Both the position numbers and the translations under genes were made by a program. 64,000 nucleotides of DNA from a virus, in UHGV virus genome UHGV-0236300. The stretch is one strand, 5' to 3'. Of the stretch, positions 9,376-19,646 are shown piece by piece. How positions within the stretch are numbered: the stretch's first letter is position 1; each line of letters begins with the position of its first letter. The notes beneath the pieces were generated by a model. It worked only from the letters and a program-made list of their open reading frames with translations, was not told the DNA's origin and did no database searches.

Positions 9376-11799
9376 ATGAGCATGTGGTCGTTCGATTTTG
9401 AGGCCTCTGGCTTGCTGGAAGACCCAGATCTTTATTATCACTGCGGTTTGTTTAAAGAGCTGAATAAGAACCGTTTTATGCTGTTCCTTCCCCTAAATGA
9501 CCGCACACACTACTCTGAAGAGGATGTGGAGAAAGCTAAGAACTTCATTCTGGCAAAGAAGACCCTTTATACAGATTTTGAGGCTCGCATAGCAGATTTT
9601 TCAGAGTTGGAAGGCTGGCTTACAGGCAATTCAGACTGGTCACCTACGGCTTTGAACTGTCATAACTGCTACAGTTACGACTTTATGCTGATGGAAAGAT
9701 TATCCGGTATTCATTTTGATATGTTCCGTGATCCTAAATGCATGGGAACTATCAACGACCACCAGGTTAATCTGTTTGATACGTTAGCGATGAGTCGAAT
9801 CTTGTGGCCTGACCGCCCTTTGCCAAAAGGTTGTCCAGACGCAGTATTCAATCCAGTTACCAAGAAAATGCAGCCTGTTGGACCTCATGGTCTTATGGCA
9901 TGGGGCTATGCCCTTGGTAACCAGAAAGTTCAAATCGATGACTGGCGGGAGCTTCCGCTGTGGAAGTATGTGGATCGTGTGTTCGAGGACGTTATCATTC
10001 AGGAGTTGCTCTGGAAGGAGTTGGTAGCGGAATCAAAAGGTGTATTCTACGGCAAATCTGACATGCAGAACTTTATGTACGATCCTGCCAAAGAGAAGCC
10101 GAAAGGCTTCAAGAAGATCACCTGGAAGAACGCATTACGCCGAGGCATGTTACAGCACTTCCTGATGGAGCTGCAGGCTCGACAGGGGGTGTATTTCGAC
10201 ATAGATGGGGCTATTGCTTTACGTGATCGTTGCGATGCGTGGATGAAAGAGATCGCTGATCGTGTTGAACCACAGCTTCCTTTAAAAGAGTTATCAATGT
10301 CTCAGCGGCCTAAGTTCCCTGAAAAGCCGTTTAACCAGGATGGGACAATCTCCAATAATGGTTGGAAATGGTTAAAAGACAAGCTTGGCTATCCTGTGGA
10401 CATGAGTGCTTTAGAATTTAAAGCCCCTCCTAAGCGAGCATTTACCTCCACAGGGGATGTAAGTAAGATGGGGATAAAATGGTGTGAAGAGATGGGCTGT
10501 AAAGACCCCGATAAGATGGCTGATTTCTTGAGGGGGTATATCAAAGGAACTTCTACACCACACCCTTTACCTAAAGAGCTGATGGATCAGGCGATAAGTG
10601 ACCTACAGCAGAAGCGAATGCCTGACTGCAAGATACCCATGAAAATCAGCAATCAGGACGACATCAAGCGATACCTGATCAGTGCTGGTTGGCTCCCAAC
10701 AATGTGGAGAACTAAGGATGTAACTAAGGATAGCAAGAAGAAAGCTTTACCTGATGCAGATGTTGATGCACGAGTATATGCATATATGGACGAGCTTTTG
10801 GAGTCAGAGTATTGTGACCTAATTATCAACTTCTGGAACAAAACTGATGCTAAGTTCCAGACAACTGTACATAAGTTCAGAAGCTTCCCTAACTCTGAAA
10901 GAATTAAAAAGGAAGTGTTCGGGAAAATACGTAGAAAAGCCAGAGCGCTTATTACTTCTCCGCAACTGAAAGATACGTTTGGGCACCTGTGCCCGAATCT
11001 TGAAAAATTGAACGGAGAGATGGCTAAAGATATCGTTTTGTGGTTATCATTGCGAAACCGTAGATCGGTCCTTGATCCAATCAAGGAAGATAAGGTTGAT
11101 ACTGGTCTTCTTAATCATCCACGTTTGAAGATTGACCACAAACTTCCTGCTAAAAGTTCTGGATTAACAAACACTTCCAGACAGAAACATAGTATTTGTG
11201 CAAACATGCCTAAACCATCTCCTAAAGTGGTTATGGGTAAAGAGATGCGTAGTCTGTGGGGTGTTCCTCCGGGATACTTTGAGATCGGTATTGACGGGTC
11301 CAACTTAGAGCAGCTCATCGGGGCCTGGGGTGCCTTTGAGTTTGACAACGGTCTGTATTATGATGTTGTAAGTAACGGGGACGCGCACCAAAACAATGCT
11401 GAGGCATATACAAAAGTAGCAGGTAGAGAGGTGTCCCGTAACGATGGTAAACCTATCACGTATGGGGTTATGTATGGGGCACAAAAAGATAAAGTTGCAG
11501 ATATGCTGGATATCTCTCCCGAACTGGGGCAGAGAGTAATCGATGCTCTCTGGGATGCCAACCCAGGTCTTAAGGGGCGCAAAGAGGATCTGGAGAAATT
11601 CTGGGAAGCAACAGGTAAGAAATTTATCTACTCTTTTGACGGGCATGCTATTTGGACACGCTCTAAACACTCTTTGCTTAATGCATATCAGCAAAATGGC
11701 GGTGCATCACTGTGTGACCTAGTTGGGATACTCATGCACCACCAGATGGTGAAGCGTGGATGGTATGATGAGGGTGTTCGTCGTATTATTTATTACCAT
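9376..11799 (+). CDS. DNA polymerase, family A (T7 gp5-like), exon 1
   Basis: N-terminal exo motif FDFEASGL and AWGYALG; motif A IDGSNLE, motif B KPITYGVMYG; ORF stops right after ...IIYYH-K, the H being the His of motif C (HDE). Confidence 0.8.
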
Positions 11800-12641
11800 A
11801 AATAACATTGTGGCTTCGTGCAGTGATGCACGTCGAAAACCTCTTTAATTGACGGGAAGGCTAAGTTGACTTTTACGCCTAAACATGGTAAAAGCTCAAT
11901 ATGCTAATCCGCAGCGAAGACTAAAGGGGTGTAGTTAAAATGGCTAGATCAGTTGATTATCACGGATATACCGTGTTTGATGATGGAACAATACCTTTAT
12001 CGAAACGTGATCATACAACAATGTTTTGTTTTGATAATGGTAGAGGTTACCTTTGCGTAACCATGCTCATCGAGGGGAAGCAGTGCACAAAAGGTGTCCA
12101 CCACTTGGTTGCTGAATGCTTTGTACCGAACCCTGATCCTGAAAAGCTCACATGGGTGAACCATAAGGATGGAAATAAGTACAACAATGCATACTGGAAC
12201 TTGGAATGGACTACCCCTGGCGGAAATATCAAACACGCCTACGATAATGAACTCAGAGTAAGGCCAGTCGGTGAGTATAATGCCAACGCTGTACTGACCG
12301 AGGATGAGGTAACGGAGATTTGTGAACTGTTGCAGAGTGGTCTACGACAATGCGAGATTAGGGATCTTGGGTATCCTTATGAGACGGTTAGGGCCATAAA
12401 GCAAAGAAGACAGTGGAAACATATCTCTAAAAACTACACCTGGTAGTAACGTTCAGAGACTATCGAAAGCATAGCTCCAACATAGTTTGGTGTGAAGAAG
12501 CGAGTAGAGTAGGCCAGCAAGTGCGGTCGAAATGAGAGGTGCCTTGGTGACAAGGCAGTGAGATAGTCCGATCCATACAGGAAACCGTATGGCTGTGCAC
12601 GTAATGGTGCGGGGTAGCTTAACGACCTACCTGAACTATTG
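11800..12641 (+). mobile_element. group I intron interrupting the DNA polymerase gene at motif C, carrying an HNH homing endonuclease ORF
   Basis: Exon 1 ends in U, intron ends in G before GATGAG; IGS-like GUGG near 5' end; conserved P (AATTGACGGGAAGG ~11847), Q (AATCCGCAGC ~11906), R (GTTCAGAGACTA ~12451), S (AGATAGTCC ~12561) elements. Confidence 0.8.
11940..12446 (+). CDS. HNH homing endonuclease (intron-encoded)
   Basis: HNH motif VNHKDGNKYNN...NLEW; lies between intron elements Q and R. Confidence 0.8.
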   Translation: MARSVDYHGYTVFDDGTIPLSKRDHTTMFCFDNGRGYLCVTMLIEGKQCTKGVHHLVAECFVPNPDPEKLTWVNHKDGNKYNNAYWNLEWTTPGGNIKHAYDNELRVRPVGEYNANAVLTEDEVTEICELLQSGLRQCEIRDLGYPYETVRAIKQRRQWKHISKNYTW

Positions 12642-12995
12642 GATGAGTACCAACTTCAAGTGCCTGACACACCTAAGTATAAAACTGTATACACCTTCGA
12701 CACAATTGAAGAGCTGGAAACATTTAAAGCCCAACAAGAGGCTAAACTTCATGTGTTCGACGGTCATAAGTACAAAAAGGCACGCAAAGATGAGGACGGA
12801 AACGAAGTGGTTGACAAGGACGGAAATACGGTATACGATCCTATCTTGAACGATGACGGAAAGCTTGAACTTATCTGGAGCCCTGTGGGCGAAATGGTGG
12901 TGCATTGCTTCTGGCAGGCTTCTAAAATGATGGGCGTTCCGTTCCAGATCACAGGTGAATACTTGTGCGGTCGTAACTGGGGCGATTGTCACTAA
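12642..12995 (+). CDS. DNA polymerase, family A (T7 gp5-like), exon 2
   Basis: Begins DEYQLQV (completes HDE motif C); ends ...GRNWGDCH, matching the T7 DNA polymerase C-terminus ...GPNWAICH; in frame with exon 1 after removing the intron. Confidence 0.8.
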   Translation, partial: DEYQLQVPDTPKYKTVYTFDTIEELETFKAQQEAKLHVFDGHKYKKARKDEDGNEVVDKDGNTVYDPILNDDGKLELIWSPVGEMVVHCFWQASKMMGVPFQITGEYLCGRNWGDCH

Positions 12996-15833: not shown

Positions 15834-16199
15834 ATGGAACAAATGAACGATCAAGCGTCGGTTGCGATGAACGAGCAAGAACAACCTCAAGAATTTTTCT
15901 TAGGGTTAAGCAAAGATCAAGTGTCTCTTCTGCTGGTACTTTCTTCTTTCATGGGGAGACTTCAGGAGCTCACACAACAACCAGAGGCTGAACAGTTATT
16001 CCAGGCTCTGCGAGAAGAAGAGAAATATCGTCGTTTGGATTATGCCTTAGGTTGGGTAGCTCAACAACGAGATATGCTAATGGCCCTTTCTGGGACGACG
16101 AGTTTTGCAATGGGCCTGTTAGCTCAAGTCCAGGACAAATTAATTCAAGCAGGGTTTGCACATACATCAACCACTAACGAAGAACAAGGAGATAAATAA
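15834..16199 (+). CDS. hypothetical protein
   Basis: Track ORF 15789..16199; ATG 15834 (MEQMNDQ) is the likelier start. Confidence 0.5.
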   Translation: MEQMNDQASVAMNEQEQPQEFFLGLSKDQVSLLLVLSSFMGRLQELTQQPEAEQLFQALREEEKYRRLDYALGWVAQQRDMLMALSGTTSFAMGLLAQVQDKLIQAGFAHTSTTNEEQGDK

Positions 16200-17425
16200 T
16201 GAGCGTTATCCAACAATTTGCTAACCCGATGAATCCGCGTGAAACTGTTTTACTGGCTCACGGTATGATTAAACGTGTCAGCATCAAGCCCATTAAAGGT
16301 GCTGATCCTACAACAGGTATTAAAACCACTGTGTGGCAAGGTAAGAAAATTGAATCCAGCCACACCATCTCTTTACTGATTTCTGAACTGGACTCCTCTG
16401 ATAACCTGCTCCAAGGTGGTGAAGAAGTTTGGATCAGCATGGGTGATAAGCTGCTTAAGCCTGGTCATCAAGACTCCGTCTCTGTTAAAATTGATGACAA
16501 GTGGGAAACAGTAACGCCAGGATGGATCGTAAATATCCCTTTAAAGGCAAATGAGCATAACGGTAAGACCTACTACAAAGGCTCACTGGCTAAAATGGTT
16601 AAGTTGGGGGCAGGAGAGGCTCCATCAGCTCCACAGCAACAAAAACAGCAACAAGGCACACAATCACAAGGCCAGAAGCAGAAACCTCAGCAGAATGCCA
16701 ATCAGGACGTTTTACGCATCTATGGTGATGTGACTCAGATTGTTGGTAACGTGGTTACTGTCAATGACCACAAGATTGGCGAAGGTGCTATGGTTGTCTC
16801 CGATGAGCAGCTTAAAGACCTGGTGGTTGGCGGTCGTGTTGCAGCTATTGTTGACAAAGACACCGGGAATATTATCAGCGGCTTCAAGGCCTACCCGCCT
16901 AAAGCAGAGAACGGTACACAAGGTTCTGGTGGTAAGCGTAAATCCTCTTACGACCCCATCGGTGTAGAGACAGGGCACAGTATCAATGCATTGCAGATCA
17001 TCCTGGATCGCGGGTTTAAGATTGACAGCCCTTTAGATGTGGCTAAAACACTGCACGTGGTCACCATCGAGCTTAAGAAAGAGTACGCTCAAGCCACTAA
17101 CCGAACTGAAGATGAAGTAGGTGCCAGTGTTGGTAATGCGGTATTGAACGCTTGTCGCCGTATTGACAAGAAAACGAAAGTTGATGATTTTGCAGTAGCA
17201 ATTACTGCAGAGGCAAAAGATGTCTTGACTAATCTTGCTGAACCGTTGTATGATTGGATCAAGAACGGTGCTGGAGCCACTGACCATCAAGAGCCTCAAG
17301 CTGCCAAACAGGAAGCCGCCCCACAGCAAAACACTGTAGACGCTCCTCCTGTAGATGATGCGGAAGACGACCCGATGGATCAGAATCCGGCACAGTACGC
17401 CTTTGATGATGACATACCTTTTTAA
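16199..17425 (+). CDS. putative ssDNA-binding protein with host-SSB-like acidic C-terminal tip
   Basis: Q/G-rich linker then C-terminus ...AFDDDIPF, almost identical to the E. coli SSB tip DFDDDIPF; an N-terminal OB fold is not verifiable by eye. Confidence 0.5.
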   Translation: MSVIQQFANPMNPRETVLLAHGMIKRVSIKPIKGADPTTGIKTTVWQGKKIESSHTISLLISELDSSDNLLQGGEEVWISMGDKLLKPGHQDSVSVKIDDKWETVTPGWIVNIPLKANEHNGKTYYKGSLAKMVKLGAGEAPSAPQQQKQQQGTQSQGQKQKPQQNANQDVLRIYGDVTQIVGNVVTVNDHKIGEGAMVVSDEQLKDLVVGGRVAAIVDKDTGNIISGFKAYPPKAENGTQGSGGKRKSSYDPIGVETGHSINALQIILDRGFKIDSPLDVAKTLHVVTIELKKEYAQATNRTEDEVGASVGNAVLNACRRIDKKTKVDDFAVAITAEAKDVLTNLAEPLYDWIKNGAGATDHQEPQAAKQEAAPQQNTVDAPPVDDAEDDPMDQNPAQYAFDDDIPF

Positions 17426-17440
17426 CATCTAGTTAACATA

Positions 17441-17470
17441 GCCCTACCCGAAAGGGTGGGGCATTTTTGT
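17441..17470 (+). terminator. rho-independent terminator (GAAA tetraloop hairpin + T-run)
   Basis: GCCCTACCC-GAAA-GGGTGGGGC followed by ATTTTTGT; paralogous to the terminator at 6440. Confidence 0.7.
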
Positions 17471-17487: not shown

Positions 17488-17904
17488 ATGACATTAGAAG
17501 ATATCATTGTTAAACCTGAGAACTATGACCAATACAATCTATCAACCCAATCTGTGGACCTTGGATGCGCCACTGTCAGTGCGTGGCTGGTTAACGGAAA
17601 AGAGTTGGATAAATGCTTAGAAGCTCACATGACTGTGAACAAGTTCCTTGATGAAAATACTCACTGGCTGGAAGGTGCAGGTGTATACGCTTCGTGGCTA
17701 GAGAGTATGGGATTTGACTACCAATCTGAAGAGGGGTGGTGGAGCTATCTGGCTATCTGTCCAGAGACATTGCAATGCTTCATGAAATATTCTGAAGATT
17801 TGGAGTACCGGGCGGTGGTTGACAGTGCTATTGCTCGTTATAGCCGTAAACCTTTTTCCCACGACATTAAAACTGTGGAAGAATTTGTTGAAGTTTTCTG
17901 TTGA
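17488..17904 (+). CDS. hypothetical protein
   Basis: ORF with SD AGAGGA upstream. Confidence 0.55.
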   Translation: MTLEDIIVKPENYDQYNLSTQSVDLGCATVSAWLVNGKELDKCLEAHMTVNKFLDENTHWLEGAGVYASWLESMGFDYQSEEGWWSYLAICPETLQCFMKYSEDLEYRAVVDSAIARYSRKPFSHDIKTVEEFVEVFC

Positions 17905-18000
17905 CACAGGTTGTAAGGTGTGCAATTATAACCTTGTAGAGCTGGAGGATGTGATGAACGAAGAAAACTGGGATGTGTAACTAACAGGAGGCCACTGCCC

Positions 18001-18198
18001 ATGATTTATCGAATCCGTGTGAGAGAAGATGCACCAGGTTGTTACTTTGACTGGCGTGGGTGGTGGTTTCTCCACCCAATGGATGGACTCACAGATAGAA
18101 TGCTGGATGCTGCCCTTTACACAGATACCGACATAGAGTATAATCTTTACTTGAAAGATGGTATCGATAACGGCCTGTTTGAAGCAATTCCTGCGTAA
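18001..18198 (+). CDS. hypothetical protein
   Basis: Short ORF with SD AGGAGG upstream. Confidence 0.45.
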   Translation: MIYRIRVREDAPGCYFDWRGWWFLHPMDGLTDRMLDAALYTDTDIEYNLYLKDGIDNGLFEAIPA

Positions 18199-18263
18199 GA
18201 GAATGTGATCGCCATGTTTTATGATCTTCCTGTAGCACCACCTATTGATCCTGGAGAACTACG

Positions 18264-18689
18264 ATGATTTATGAAATGCCAAAACTGATTCGTGACGATG
18301 CACGAAACGCCCACACCTTTATTATGGGCAAGCGCATGGATATTATTTGTCACAAAGACTTCTGGGAAGGGAGCTACTTCACAGAATATTTTGGAAAAAT
18401 GGATGATGGCCTACTGATCCAGTTTTACACCGATGCGGAAAACAACATTAGTTGGGAGTTCGAGACCGAAGATATCCATAAACTTTTCACCTTCCTTGGT
18501 ATTAAGATTAAGGCCAAGTTTGAAGAGGGAGAGTGCGACGATTGTGGATTTTATGAGGTAACAGATTTCTATCTTCCGAGCGGTAAAAACCTTTACTATG
18601 AAAGCCACTTCGGTAACTCCAATATGCCACAGTGCTGGACTGAGTTTTTTGAAATTGTGGAAGAGGAGCTGGAATATCGTGATTATTGA
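18264..18689 (+). CDS. hypothetical protein
   Basis: ORF; Cys pair ECDDCG; no assignable family. Confidence 0.5.
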   Translation: MIYEMPKLIRDDARNAHTFIMGKRMDIICHKDFWEGSYFTEYFGKMDDGLLIQFYTDAENNISWEFETEDIHKLFTFLGIKIKAKFEEGECDDCGFYEVTDFYLPSGKNLYYESHFGNSNMPQCWTEFFEIVEEELEYRDY

Positions 18690-19137
18690 TACTGTAGAGG
18701 GAGATTTAATCTCCCTTTTTAAGAGCGGTGCTGGTCACCTGATCCACGGTTGTAACTGCTTCCACACAATGGGTAAGGGTGTAGCAAAACAGATTGCCCG
18801 TGAGTTCCCTCAAGCATTGGAAGCTGATAAAATGACTATGCACGGTTGCCTAAGTAAACTGGGCGCGTTCTCCCGCTGGGAGCACTTATCTCCGAGAGGT
18901 ATTGTCTACGGAATAAATCTGTATACTCAGTTCTACCCAGGGCCTAATGCTGAATATTTCTCAATACTGAAAGGATTTGAGCGAGTCAATGAAGTATTTG
19001 AGGGGTCGATTTTACCATTCTACATCCCTAAGATCGGGTGCGGCATAGGCGGTTTGAAGTGGGAACATGTAGAGGACATTATTAACCTTGCCACTTTTGA
19101 TATAGATATTATCGTGGTGGAGTACAAAGAGTGTTGA
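18679..19137 (+). CDS. macrodomain protein, TARG1/OARD1/DarG-like (putative ADP-ribose hydrolase)
   Basis: HGCNCFHTMGKGVAKQIAREF and IPKIGCGIGGLKWEHVEDII...IIVVEY closely parallel TARG1 H-CISEDCRMGAGIA and MPRIGCGLDRLQWENV motifs; start uncertain (GTG 18679 or upstream ATG 18598). Confidence 0.65.
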   Translation: MIIDTVEGDLISLFKSGAGHLIHGCNCFHTMGKGVAKQIAREFPQALEADKMTMHGCLSKLGAFSRWEHLSPRGIVYGINLYTQFYPGPNAEYFSILKGFERVNEVFEGSILPFYIPKIGCGIGGLKWEHVEDIINLATFDIDIIVVEYKEC

Positions 19138-19162
19138 CAGCTATATTTTAAGGTGGTATAGT
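19134..19162 (+). promoter_or_regulatory. sigma70 promoter (TTGACA-N17-TATAGT)
   Basis: Consensus -35 and near-consensus -10, upstream of gene 19192. Confidence 0.5.
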
Positions 19163-19191
19163 CACCACAACGATTAAGACAGGGGAGCACT

Positions 19192-19386
19192 ATGGAGACT
19201 AAAATCTTAATTCTAGCTGTGATAGATACAACAGAAGGAGCCATGTTTGAATCTGCAGGAGGGTATTTCTACCTGCCCTACGGAAAAAGAACTTCCGAGC
19301 CGAGTAAAGATTCAATCCTCAAAGTGTTCCCGTGTGCTTTCTGGCTGGAGATTCTGGTAGAAGATTGCAGAGGCTTGGGGAGATAA
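19192..19386 (+). CDS. hypothetical protein
   Basis: ORF with SD AGGGGAG upstream. Confidence 0.45.
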   Translation: METKILILAVIDTTEGAMFESAGGYFYLPYGKRTSEPSKDSILKVFPCAFWLEILVEDCRGLGR

Positions 19387-19388
19387 TT

Positions 19389-19583
19389 ATGAGAAACAAG
19401 AAAGAGCTTTACTCTGGCGAGTGGATAAACGATCAACAGGTAGGAGAGGTAACCTGCTTCCGTTGCTTTACTCGGTACAATCTTAAAACTGCACCAAAAA
19501 GTGTTCCAAAGACTGACGGTTATTACATAAAAGAACCTCATTGCCCGAAGTGTAAATGCCGAGTATACTGGAGTAACCTGTAA
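19389..19583 (+). CDS. small zinc-ribbon protein
   Basis: Track ORF 19332..19583; ATG 19389 after SD GGGGAG; CxxC...CxxC pattern (CFRC, CPKCKC). Confidence 0.5.
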   Translation: MRNKKELYSGEWINDQQVGEVTCFRCFTRYNLKTAPKSVPKTDGYYIKEPHCPKCKCRVYWSNL

Positions 19584-19587
19584 AAGG

Positions 19588-19615
19588 TTGACATCTGAAA
19601 ACTGCGGTATATAAT
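19588..19615 (+). promoter_or_regulatory. sigma70 promoter (TTGACA-N16-TATAAT)
   Basis: Consensus hexamers upstream of gene 19647. Confidence 0.55.
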
Positions 19616-19646
19616 ATAAACATAAACTAGCAGAGAGGGATAAATT

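What the first reader, a model, noticed from the sequence alone, without database searches (positions are those of the whole stretch)
18679..19137. Phage-encoded TARG1/DarG-like macrodomain: candidate counter-defence against ADP-ribosylating systems
The protein carries two blocks (HGCNCFHTMGKGVAKQIAREF and IPKIGCGIGGLKWEHVEDII...IIVVEY) that closely parallel the TARG1/OARD1 macrodomain. The DarG antitoxin macrodomain, which removes ADP-ribose from DNA thymidines modified by the DarT toxin, belongs to the same TARG1-like group. A phage copy inside the replication module could reverse ADP-ribosylation of phage DNA or proteins by host DarTG-like defences. This is the best candidate in the window for an uncharacterised anti-defence function.
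Basis: inference. Interest (0 to 1): 0.85.

Follow-up and report, generated by a model that had tools for sequence, protein, structure and literature searches.

The report
Phage macrodomain: T4 AdfM-type anti-DarT2 enzyme
This gene of an rV5-like E. coli phage encodes a small ADP-ribose-removing enzyme that is a clear relative of phage T4's recently named AdfM, which protects phage DNA from the bacterial DarTG2 defence.

Summary
The ORF is real: 18679-19137, + strand, GTG start, 152 aa. It is conserved and under purifying selection (dN/dS about 0.2). It is a macrodomain (Pfam Macro). The AlphaFold model is very confident (pLDDT 96.7) and its best structural matches all belong to the TARG1/DarG/SCO6735/Poa1p class.

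The window is a Vequintavirus, 99.9% identical to phage ECP26, where this gene is already annotated "macro domain protein". The protein is 41% identical over its full length (E=7e-43) to T4 Tk.4. A November 2025 preprint named Tk.4 AdfM because its knockout makes T4 sensitive to DarTG2. A separate 2026 paper showed that PhiKZ AdfM removes DarT2's ADP-ribose from ssDNA in vitro.

One detail differs. The catalytic lysine of DarG (K80), TARG1 (K84) and PhiKZ AdfM (K78) is a near-invariant glutamine here (Q84, 94 of 95 family members) and in T4 Tk.4. SCO6735 has the same arrangement: its Q85 is essential for removing thymidine-linked ADP-ribose. The protein lacks DarG's DarT-binding domain and has no DarT neighbour. 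Activity in this phage is untested.

The parts
18679..19137 (+). CDS of the 152-aa macrodomain protein, a T4 Tk.4/AdfM-type orphan ADP-ribosyl hydrolase. GTG start, TGA stop.
18745..18786 (+). Motif 1, H23-G-C-N26-C-F-H-T-M-G-K-G-V-A36. This is the ADP-ribose-binding and catalytic loop. N26 corresponds to DarG N22, PhiKZ AdfM N23 and SCO6735 N27. H23 corresponds to SCO6735 H24, Poa1p H23 and TARG1 H32.
   Evidence: H23 is conserved in 93/95 family members, N26 in 94/95, and G34 and A36 in 95/95.
18916..18942 (+). Motif 2, N80-L-Y-T-Q84-F-Y-P-G88. Q84 (CAG, 18928-18930) occupies the column of DarG K80, TARG1 K84, PhiKZ AdfM K78 and SCO6735 Q85.
   Evidence: Q84 is conserved in 94/95 family members and N80 in 95/95.
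19027..19062 (+). Motif 3, P117-K-I-G-C-G-I-G-G-L-K-W128, the phosphate-binding loop. G120 and G122 correspond to SCO6735 G126 and G128. The TARG1 D125 position is Gly here, as it is in DarG.
18663..18668 (+). Shine-Dalgarno-like GAGGAG, 10 nt upstream of the GTG start
18116..18144 (+). Sigma-70-like promoter (TTTACA-17-TATAAT, 11/12 matches). It is the putative early promoter of the two-gene unit formed by the 141-aa ORF and the macro gene. This is a consensus match only.
18264..18689 (+). Upstream 141-aa ORF of unknown function (PHROG_8157). It overlaps the macro start by 11 nt, so it is probably co-transcribed and translationally coupled. It is not a conserved partner outside Vequintavirus.

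Best explanation
The gene encodes a stand-alone 'orphan antitoxin-like' macrodomain hydrolase of the TARG1/ALC1-like class, and it belongs to the T4 Tk.4 (AdfM) family. It is probably expressed early from a host-type promoter. It most likely removes ADP-ribose that host DarT2-type toxins attach to thymidines in single-stranded phage DNA, which lets replication and packaging proceed on DarTG2-bearing E. coli.

Catalysis probably does not use the lysine of DarG or TARG1. It more likely uses the Gln-dependent, water-mediated mechanism described for SCO6735. In that scheme Q84 positions the distal ribose, N26 locks Q84 in place, and the backbone of residue 24 positions the water.

Shown: fold, class, motif conservation, and homology to T4 AdfM. 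Inferred: substrate, mechanism, anti-DarTG2 activity in this phage, and timing of expression.
For: - **Domain and fold.** Pfam Macro is above its cutoff. The AF2 model has pLDDT 96.7 and pTM 0.91.
- **Profile matches.** The only NCBIfam hit and the only PADLOC hit are both DarG.
- **Homology to T4 AdfM.** 41% identity end to end with T4 Tk.4, E=7e-43, with identical HGCNCFHTMG and NLYTQF-PGPN motifs. The top BFVD fold hit is a Tk.4 protein. The 70%-identical Krischvirus protein sits at the tk.4 locus.
- **T4 genetics.** tk.4 was the single transposon-screen hit on a DarTG2 host, and a clean knockout sensitises T4.
- **Class biochemistry.** PhiKZ AdfM, DarG, TARG1 and SCO6735 all remove thymidine-linked ADP-ribose.
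- **Gln precedent.** SCO6735 Q85A is catalytically dead, and Q84 aligns to Q85 by HMM, MAFFT and hmmalign.
- **Selection.** dN/dS is 0.20-0.25.
- **Expression context.** The region is enriched in sigma-70-like promoters, 23 found against 11.2 +/- 3.6 expected.
Against: - There is no experiment on this protein or on any Vequintavirus. I found no DarTG2 sensitivity data for Vequintavirinae.
- At 41% identity to T4 Tk.4, substrate range could differ.
- The T4 evidence is genetic only, with no biochemistry.
- The only biochemically tested phage AdfM (PhiKZ) is Lys-type and only 24% identical.
- SCO6735 has a loop 5 aa longer, carrying Lys residues credited with DNA processivity, and that loop is absent here.
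- The Iyer/Aravind survey argued that phage macrodomains mostly target small soluble ADPr derivatives.
- The phage lineage also encodes a Sir2-like protein and an RNA ligase elsewhere in the genome, which could generate small ADPr by-products.
Confidence: 0.7

Rival explanations
1. It is a housekeeping processor of small ADP-ribose derivatives. It would hydrolyse ADP-ribose-1''-phosphate (as Poa1p does) or O-acetyl-ADP-ribose produced by phage or host RNA-repair or sirtuin reactions. This is the historical 'A1pp phosphatase' annotation.
For: - PHROG_335 and many GenBank records call it 'phosphatase', and T4 tk.4 is annotated 'A1pp phosphatase motif'.
- Poa1p is among the top structural hits. 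Its H23-S-C-N-C motif is nearly identical to H23-G-C-N-C here.
- A close relative encodes an RNA ligase, a Sir2-like protein and a Nudix-like protein.
- The Aravind survey favours soluble substrates for phage macrodomains.
Against: - The T4 orthologue's only detected phenotype is DarTG2-specific.
- The annotation is by motif only and was never tested.
- Poa1p has Ser, not Gln, at the key column, plus a large insertion that is absent here.
- The Sir2/RNA-ligase genes lie about 50 kb from the macro gene.
- This activity could coexist as a side reaction without being the selected function.
Confidence: 0.1
2. It is a broader eraser. Its main targets would be ADP-ribosylated proteins (Asp/Glu-linked) or uracil-ADP-ribosylated RNA made by other host ARTs or toxins, or by the phage itself, rather than DarT2-modified DNA.
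For: SCO6735 and TARG1 also de-MARylate proteins. TARG1, DarG and SCO6735 reverse U-ADPr on RNA. The active site here is SCO6735-like.
Against: - No ART is annotated in the roughly 90 kb (1-90 kb) of the close relative that I inspected; the last ~47 kb was not examined.
- The T4 genetic data point to DarTG2.
- No bacterial anti-phage system is known that makes U-ADPr RNA or Glu-ADPr on phage proteins.
- SCO6735 is inactive on 2'-OH RNA ADPr.
Confidence: 0.15
3. It degrades or sequesters an ADPr-derived immune signal, such as Thoeris gcADPR or His-ADPR, and so acts as an anti-signalling factor.
Against: The closest class is the base- and protein-linked ADPr hydrolases, not ThsA. No data link Tk.4-type proteins to Thoeris. 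Catalytic residues are conserved, which argues for an enzyme rather than a sponge.
Confidence: 0.03

Closest known systems
T4 Tk.4 = AdfM (anti-DarT factor macrodomain; HIDEN-SEQ preprint 10.1101/2025.11.20.689424)
   Same: Same length, with 41% identity end to end (E=7e-43). The HGCNCFHTMG, NLYTQF-PGPN and P-[KR]-IG-x-GIG motifs match. Both are single-domain proteins. The Krischvirus intermediate (70% identical to the window protein) occupies the tk.4 locus.
   Different: Different phage family (Vequintavirinae rather than Straboviridae) and different neighbours: no vs or tk genes nearby. Function in this phage is untested.
PhiKZ gp104 = AdfM (Cell Rep 2026, PMC13309987)
   Same: A stand-alone phage macrodomain of the TARG1/DarG class. 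It has been shown to remove DarT2 ADP-ribose from ssDNA and to neutralise DarT2.
   Different: Only 24% identical. It is Lys-type (N23/K78, FPTK motif) and much closer to DarG: 133 bits on the PADLOC DarG model, against 52 bits for the window protein. It is imported into the phage nucleus. By tblastn at E<=1e-10, PhiKZ gp104 matches about ten times fewer sequenced phage records than the window protein does (245 against 2,498).
SCO6735 (Streptomyces coelicolor; PDB 5E3B) and BT1257 (PDB 2FG1/2AFC)
   Same: Stand-alone Gln-type TARG1-like macrodomains. Residues correspond as Q84=Q85, N26=N27, H23=H24, and G120/G122=G126/G128. SCO6735 hydrolyses T-ADPr DNA and neutralises DarT, and its Q85A mutant is dead.
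   Different: About 23% identity. SCO6735 and BT1257 have a 5-6 residue longer loop after the Gln, carrying Lys89 and Lys94, which is absent here. They have 'IGQ' before the Gln where this protein has 'YTQ'. They are cellular proteins, and SCO6735 is DNA-damage inducible.
DarG antitoxin of DarTG2 (PDB 5M3I, 5M31, 7OMU)
   Same: Same macrodomain class. It is the best sequence and profile hit in PDB (3e-18) and the only NCBIfam and PADLOC hit. It removes T-ADPr.
   Different: The window protein has no C-terminal DarT-binding domain, since only positions 3-143 of the 338-position model are matched. It has no adjacent darT gene. K80 is replaced by Q84, and DarG lacks His23. The score of 47 bits is far below the 250-bit equivalog cutoff.
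Human TARG1/OARD1 (PDB 4J5S)
   Same: Best Foldseek match (TMt 0.85). It shares the His, the IGCG loop and the overall size, and it removes T-ADPr and U-ADPr.
   Different: The catalytic dyad K84/D125 is replaced by Q84 and Gly. Identity is 23-24%.

Membership tests
Macrodomain (Pfam PF01661), TARG1/ALC1-like class | Macro fold, with sequence and structural neighbours drawn from the TARG1/DarG/SCO6735/Poa1p group rather than the MacroD, PARG or macroH2A groups | tested here: met
AdfM, T4 Tk.4 type | Full-length sequence homology to T4 Tk.4 with shared active-site motifs | tested here: met
   41% identity over 153 columns, E=7e-43. One copy per genome. A Krischvirus protein 70% identical to the window protein lies at the tk.4 locus.
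AdfM, T4 Tk.4 type | Protects the phage against DarTG2, so that loss of the gene sensitises it | not testable with these tools
   Shown only for T4. No Vequintavirus data found.
AdfM (any type) | Removes DarT2-installed ADP-ribose from thymidine in ssDNA in vitro | not testable with these tools
   Shown for PhiKZ gp104 and for SCO6735, DarG and TARG1.
DarG antitoxin (NCBIfam NF048014 / PADLOC DarG) | Two-domain architecture: macrodomain plus C-terminal DarT-binding domain | tested here: not met
   The protein is 152 aa. The match covers model positions 3-143 of 338, scoring 47 bits against a 250-bit cutoff. PADLOC covers 4-141 of 329.
DarG antitoxin | Encoded next to a darT toxin gene | tested here: not met
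   The neighbours are phage ORFs of unknown function. PHROG searches returned only unknown-function families for the ten flanking ORFs, and NCBIfam and PADLOC searches of the three nearest upstream ORFs found no defence-system match.
DarG / TARG1 catalytic type | Catalytic lysine (DarG K80, TARG1 K84) | tested here: not met
   The aligned residue is Q84 by three alignment methods. Q is found in 94/95 family members.
TARG1/OARD1 | Asp125, which resolves the lysyl intermediate | tested here: not met
   The aligned position is Gly124/Gly125.
SCO6735-type (Gln-type) TARG1-like hydrolase | Gln at the catalytic-lysine position, together with the Asn that locks it and the G-x-G phosphate loop | tested here: met
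   Q84=Q85, N26=N27, H23=H24, and G120/G122=G126/G128.
SCO6735-type (Gln-type) TARG1-like hydrolase | Extended mobile loop (+5 aa, with Lys89 and Lys94) after the Gln | tested here: not met
   SCO6735 and BT1257 carry a 5-6 residue insertion that is absent from the window protein and from T4 Tk.4.
Poa1p-type ADP-ribose-1''-phosphate phosphatase | Poa1p active-site residues (H23, S30) and the Poa1p-specific insertion | tested here: inconclusive
   H23 is conserved and S30 aligns with T30. However, Poa1p has Ser at the Q84 column and a roughly 23-residue insertion that is absent here. Enzymatic activity is not testable.

The most novel reading that the evidence does not exclude
There may be two mechanistically and evolutionarily separate AdfM lineages in phages. 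The first is the rarer PhiKZ type, which is DarG-derived and uses a catalytic Lys. The second is the T4/Vequintavirus type, which is about ten times more common (roughly 5% of sequenced phage genomes). It would use a conserved Gln (Y-T-Q motif) in a lysine-independent, water-mediated mechanism like that of SCO6735, with a shorter loop. It would have been recruited from stand-alone cellular TARG1-like enzymes rather than from DarG. If that is correct, the most common phage anti-DarT2 enzyme works by a chemistry not yet demonstrated for any phage protein, and it may have a broader substrate range covering T-ADPr DNA, U-ADPr RNA and Glu-ADPr proteins.
Probability: 0.5. Interest if true: 0.45.

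Novelty: new member of a known kind. Interest (0 to 1): 0.3.

Why it matters
DarTG systems are common in E. coli and other pathogens, and they block phages by ADP-ribosylating phage DNA. Knowing which therapeutic or typing phages carry an AdfM-type eraser helps predict host range on DarTG2-bearing strains. rV5-like phages are widely used against O157 and other STEC strains.

The gene itself adds little conceptually, because the family was named in 2025-2026. The modest added value is the Gln-for-Lys observation. The widespread T4-type AdfM clade shares its active-site layout with SCO6735 rather than with DarG. That makes a specific, cheap mutational and biochemical prediction, and it suggests that phages acquired anti-DarT2 erasers independently at least twice.

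Tried and rejected
1. **The coupled upstream 141-aa ORF as a substitute for DarG's missing DarT-binding domain.** Rejected. It has no NCBIfam or PADLOC similarity even at E<=10. Its Krischvirus homologue is not adjacent to the macro gene.
2. **The longer ATG-18598 start (179 aa).** Rejected in favour of GTG-18679.
3. **Membership in DarG proper.** Rejected on architecture, operon context and catalytic residue.
4. **A TARG1-type K/D catalytic dyad.** Absent.
5. **Published DarTG2 sensitivity data for Vequintavirinae.** None found. LeRoux 2022 is not held in the library.
6. **Neighbouring-gene function.** All ten flanking ORFs fall in PHROGs of unknown function, with no Pfam domains.
7. **ARTs or NAD-related genes near the macro gene.** None found in the window portion covered by the relative's annotation. 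A Sir2/Nudix/RNA-ligase cluster exists elsewhere in the genome, outside the window.
8. **Not run.** I did not use the search of protein representatives or the second structure-prediction job, because neither result would have changed the verdict.

Full report
**1. Observation**

The reverse strand is riddled with stop codons.

The GTG start at 18679 is supported on several counts:
- A GAGGAG Shine-Dalgarno sequence lies at 18663-18668.
- The start overlaps the stop codon of the upstream 141-aa ORF by 11 nt.
- GenBank uses the same start for the identical gene in phage ECP26.
- Homologues are 150-155 aa long.
- The Krischvirus W115 orthologue has an ATG at the equivalent position.

The alternative ATG at 18598 (179 aa) is used in some annotations. 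It would overlap the upstream gene by 92 nt and adds residues with no counterpart in homologues.

Pairwise dN/dS against Vequintavirus orthologues about 7% diverged at the nucleotide level in this gene is 0.20-0.25, and every motif residue is invariant. This is a real protein-coding gene under purifying selection.

**2. Genome and context**

The window is a Vequintavirus (rV5-like E. coli myovirus). The 3-kb region around the gene is 99.9% identical to vB_EcoM-ECP26, and 151 phage records match it. In ECP26 and many relatives the gene is already annotated "macro domain protein", "phosphatase" or "O-acetyl-ADP-ribose deacetylase".

In the Pharokka-annotated relative NHEP1, the gene order upstream and co-directional is rIIA, rIIB, helicase, methyltransferases, primase/helicase and DNA polymerase. 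About 3 kb of small ORFs follow, then a 408-aa ORF, then the macro gene. Downstream lies roughly 17 kb of small unannotated ORFs. The gene is therefore downstream of the replication module, not inside it.

The 408-aa ORF (16199-17425) ends in FDDDIPF, the C-terminal tip motif of E. coli SSB (my own knowledge). It gives only a weak tail match to the SSB models. A strong intrinsic terminator follows it at 17441-17462.

The region is enriched in sigma-70-consensus promoters: 23 found against 11.2 +/- 3.6 expected. They include sites at 18116-18144 (11/12 matches), 19134-19162 (11/12) and 19588-19615 (12/12). This suggests host-RNAP-driven early transcription of short units, one of which would be the 141-aa ORF plus the macro gene. 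These are consensus matches only.

All ten flanking ORFs belong to PHROGs of unknown function.

**3. Fold and class**

- Pfam Macro (PF01661): E=1.3e-7, 32 bits against a 22-bit cutoff.
- PHROG_335 "phosphatase": E=1e-60.
- A 95-sequence family alignment produced an AlphaFold2 model with pLDDT 96.7 and pTM 0.91.
- Foldseek against PDB ranks TARG1 first (TMt 0.85). Poa1p, T. aquaticus and M. tuberculosis DarG macrodomains, Thermosipho DarTG, BT1257 and SCO6735 follow.
- The family profile hits Mtb DarG, SCO6735, BT1257 and TARG1 about equally, at 3e-18 to 6e-17.
- The only NCBIfam hit and the only PADLOC hit are both DarG. Each covers just the macrodomain part of the model and falls far below the equivalog cutoff (47 against 250 bits).

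The "TARG1/DarG-like macrodomain" assignment is correct.

**4. Relationship to characterised phage proteins**

tblastn finds homologues in 2,742 phage records at E<=1e-5, and in 2,498 at E<=1e-10. Among them is the tk.4 gene of T-even phages.

Against T4 Tk.4 itself, the protein is 41% identical over its whole length (E=7e-43), with identical HGCNCFHTMG and NLYTQF-PGPN motifs. The top BFVD structural match is a Tk.4 protein.

In Krischvirus W115, a protein 70% identical to the window's sits in the canonical regB-vs.1-vs-[macro]-...-tk-rI position of tk.4. This links the Vequintavirus gene to the tk.4 group, and it suggests exchange between unrelated myovirus lineages.

The HIDEN-SEQ preprint (10.1101/2025.11.20.689424) reports that tk.4 was the single significant hit when a T4 transposon library was grown on a DarTG2 host. 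A clean knockout sensitises T4 to DarTG2. The authors named the gene adfM, for anti-DarT factor macrodomain, and presented no biochemistry.

Independently, Cell Rep 2026 (PMC13309987) gave PhiKZ gp104 the same name. That work showed removal of DarT2-installed ADP-ribose from ssDNA in vitro, rescue from DarT2 toxicity, and a requirement for phage growth on DarTG2 strains.

Earlier work had shown that T4 lacking AdfA and AdfN remained resistant to DarTG2.

**5. The active site is not DarG-like**

In the family alignment Q84 is present in 94 of 95 sequences. N80, Y82 and T83 are also near-invariant, as are H23, N26, G34, A36, G120 and G122.

Three independent alignments place Q84 in the column of DarG K80, TARG1 K84 and PhiKZ K78. 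These are the HMM profile against PDB, MAFFT L-INS-i and hmmalign. The same column holds SCO6735 Q85 and the equivalent Gln of BT1257. Poa1p has Ser there.

I verified the reference sequences that I recalled from memory against PDB. TARG1 and Poa1p both matched at 100%.

The literature supports the importance of this column:
- K80 and K84 are the catalytic lysines of DarG and TARG1.
- In SCO6735 the Q85A mutation abolishes activity on both T-ADPr DNA and protein substrates.
- Also in SCO6735, N27 is proposed to lock Q85 in position, and the backbone of V25 positions a catalytic water.
- SCO6735 neutralises DarT.

The mapping to the window protein is one to one: H23=H24, G24=V25, N26=N27, Q84=Q85, and G120/G122=G126/G128.

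Two differences from SCO6735 remain. The window protein and T4 Tk.4 lack its loop, which is 5-6 residues longer and carries Lys residues. They also have Y-T-Q where SCO6735 has I-G-Q.

PhiKZ AdfM is by contrast a DarG-like Lys-type enzyme. It scores 133 bits on the PADLOC DarG model, against 52 bits for the window protein and 36 bits for T4 Tk.4. It is only 24% identical to the window protein. PhiKZ-type homologues occur in 245 phage records, against 2,498 for the window type at the same threshold.

The two AdfM papers I read do not discuss this Lys/Gln split.

**6. Mechanism proposed**

*Shown:*
- A stand-alone TARG1-class macrodomain with all ADP-ribose-binding and catalytic motifs conserved.
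- Orthology-grade similarity to T4 AdfM.

*Established for relatives:*
- The TARG1-like class is the one that removes ADP-ribose from thymine (DNA) and uracil (RNA) bases. This holds for both Lys-type and Gln-type members.
- T4 AdfM is needed against DarTG2.

*Inferred:*
- The Vequintavirus protein is made early.
- It hydrolyses the N-glycosidic thymidine-ADP-ribose bonds that DarT2 installs on single-stranded phage DNA.
- It uses Q84 and N26 to position the distal ribose, with a water-mediated step in place of a lysyl intermediate.
- It may also inhibit DarT by binding, as catalytically dead SCO6735, DarG and TARG1 do. This last point is speculative.

**7. Rivals**

(a) *Small-molecule processing (Appr1p or OAADPr).* This is the historical annotation. 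Support comes from the Poa1p resemblance and from the RNA ligase/Sir2/Nudix genes elsewhere in the genome. The Aravind survey also takes this view. Against it stand the DarTG2-specific T4 phenotype and the distance between those genes and the macro gene.

(b) *Broader protein or RNA de-ADP-ribosylation.* SCO6735 and TARG1 provide precedent.

(c) *Interference with ADPr-derived immune signals.* Support is weak.

None of these is excluded as a side activity.

**8. Novelty and score**

The observation and the interpretation are both right. However, the gene is already annotated as a macrodomain in GenBank, and its family has been experimentally tied to anti-DarTG2 counter-defence since late 2025. 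It is a new, untested member of a known kind.

The Gln-type active site shared with T4 AdfM and SCO6735 is a modest, testable refinement.

Interest: 0.3.

Noticed in passing
window 9376-12992 (+): The DNA polymerase gene is mosaic compared with the relative NHEP1, whose polymerase is 1248 aa. Window 9376-11388 encodes aa 1-671, and 11392-11799 encodes aa 996-1131. The missing 324 aa carry a weak Hint-domain hit in NHEP1, so they are probably an intein that is absent here. An insertion of about 840 bp (11800-12641) follows. It has a sub-threshold Rfam group I intron match (11790-12046, 31 bits, E=1e-5) and a 168-aa ORF (11940-12446) with a weak HNH hit. Polymerase aa 1132-1248 resume at 12642-12992 in another frame. 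This is probably a group I intron carrying a homing endonuclease.
   Followed up: partly
window 16199-17425 (+), terminator 17441-17462: A 408-aa ORF of unknown function (PHROG_4477) has a Gln/Pro-rich linker and ends in FDDDIPF, the C-terminal tip motif of E. coli SSB. It gives only weak tail matches to the SSB models. It could be a phage SSB or an SSB-tail mimic that recruits host SSB partners. A strong intrinsic terminator follows it.
   Followed up: partly
window 17900-19620 (+): Near-perfect sigma-70 consensus promoters sit between small ORFs at 17901-17929, 18116-18144, 19134-19162 and 19588-19615 (the last is 12/12). Across 15.5-21.5 kb the scan found 23 sites against 11.2 +/- 3.6 expected. 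The pattern fits an array of independently transcribed early genes.
   Followed up: no
Relative NHEP1 (L005) 14.7-18.5 kb; outside the window: A cluster annotated as phosphoesterase, ATPase, RNA ligase, Sir2 NAD-dependent deacetylase and nucleotide pyrophosphohydrolase. It may be a phage RNA-repair or NAD/ADPr module, and its by-products could be macrodomain substrates.
   Followed up: no
L007 (Krischvirus W115) 2001-2456 compared with window 18679-19137: The Krischvirus (T4-like) protein at the tk.4 position is 70% identical to the Vequintavirus macro protein, whereas T4's own Tk.4 is only 41% identical. This suggests horizontal exchange of the gene between unrelated myovirus lineages that infect E. 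coli.
   Followed up: partly
BFVD hit A0A481YV05 (Marseillevirus LCMAC103, 302 aa): A giant-virus protein named 'SNF2 subfamily protein' carries a macrodomain 40% identical to this phage protein (TMq 0.94). This is closer than most phage homologues and recalls the SNF2-plus-macro architecture of ALC1.
   Followed up: no
window ~33.5-36 kb (corresponds to L003 ~36-38.2 kb): A gene-poor zone where the two divergent transcription units meet, annotated only with many tiny ORFs. The Bas54 HIDEN-SEQ study reports that a ~2-kb intergenic region between divergently transcribed genes in a Vequintavirus tolerates no transposon insertions. That would mean it has an essential but unknown function, and it may correspond to this zone; I did not test the correspondence.
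   Followed up: no
hit H54 (Vibrio phage Bennett 106239-106706): In some Vibrio phages the macro homologue lies next to a ribose-phosphate pyrophosphokinase-like gene. This may be a link to NAD+ reconstitution (NARP1-like Adps), and it hints that the family has different functional contexts in other phages.
   Followed up: no
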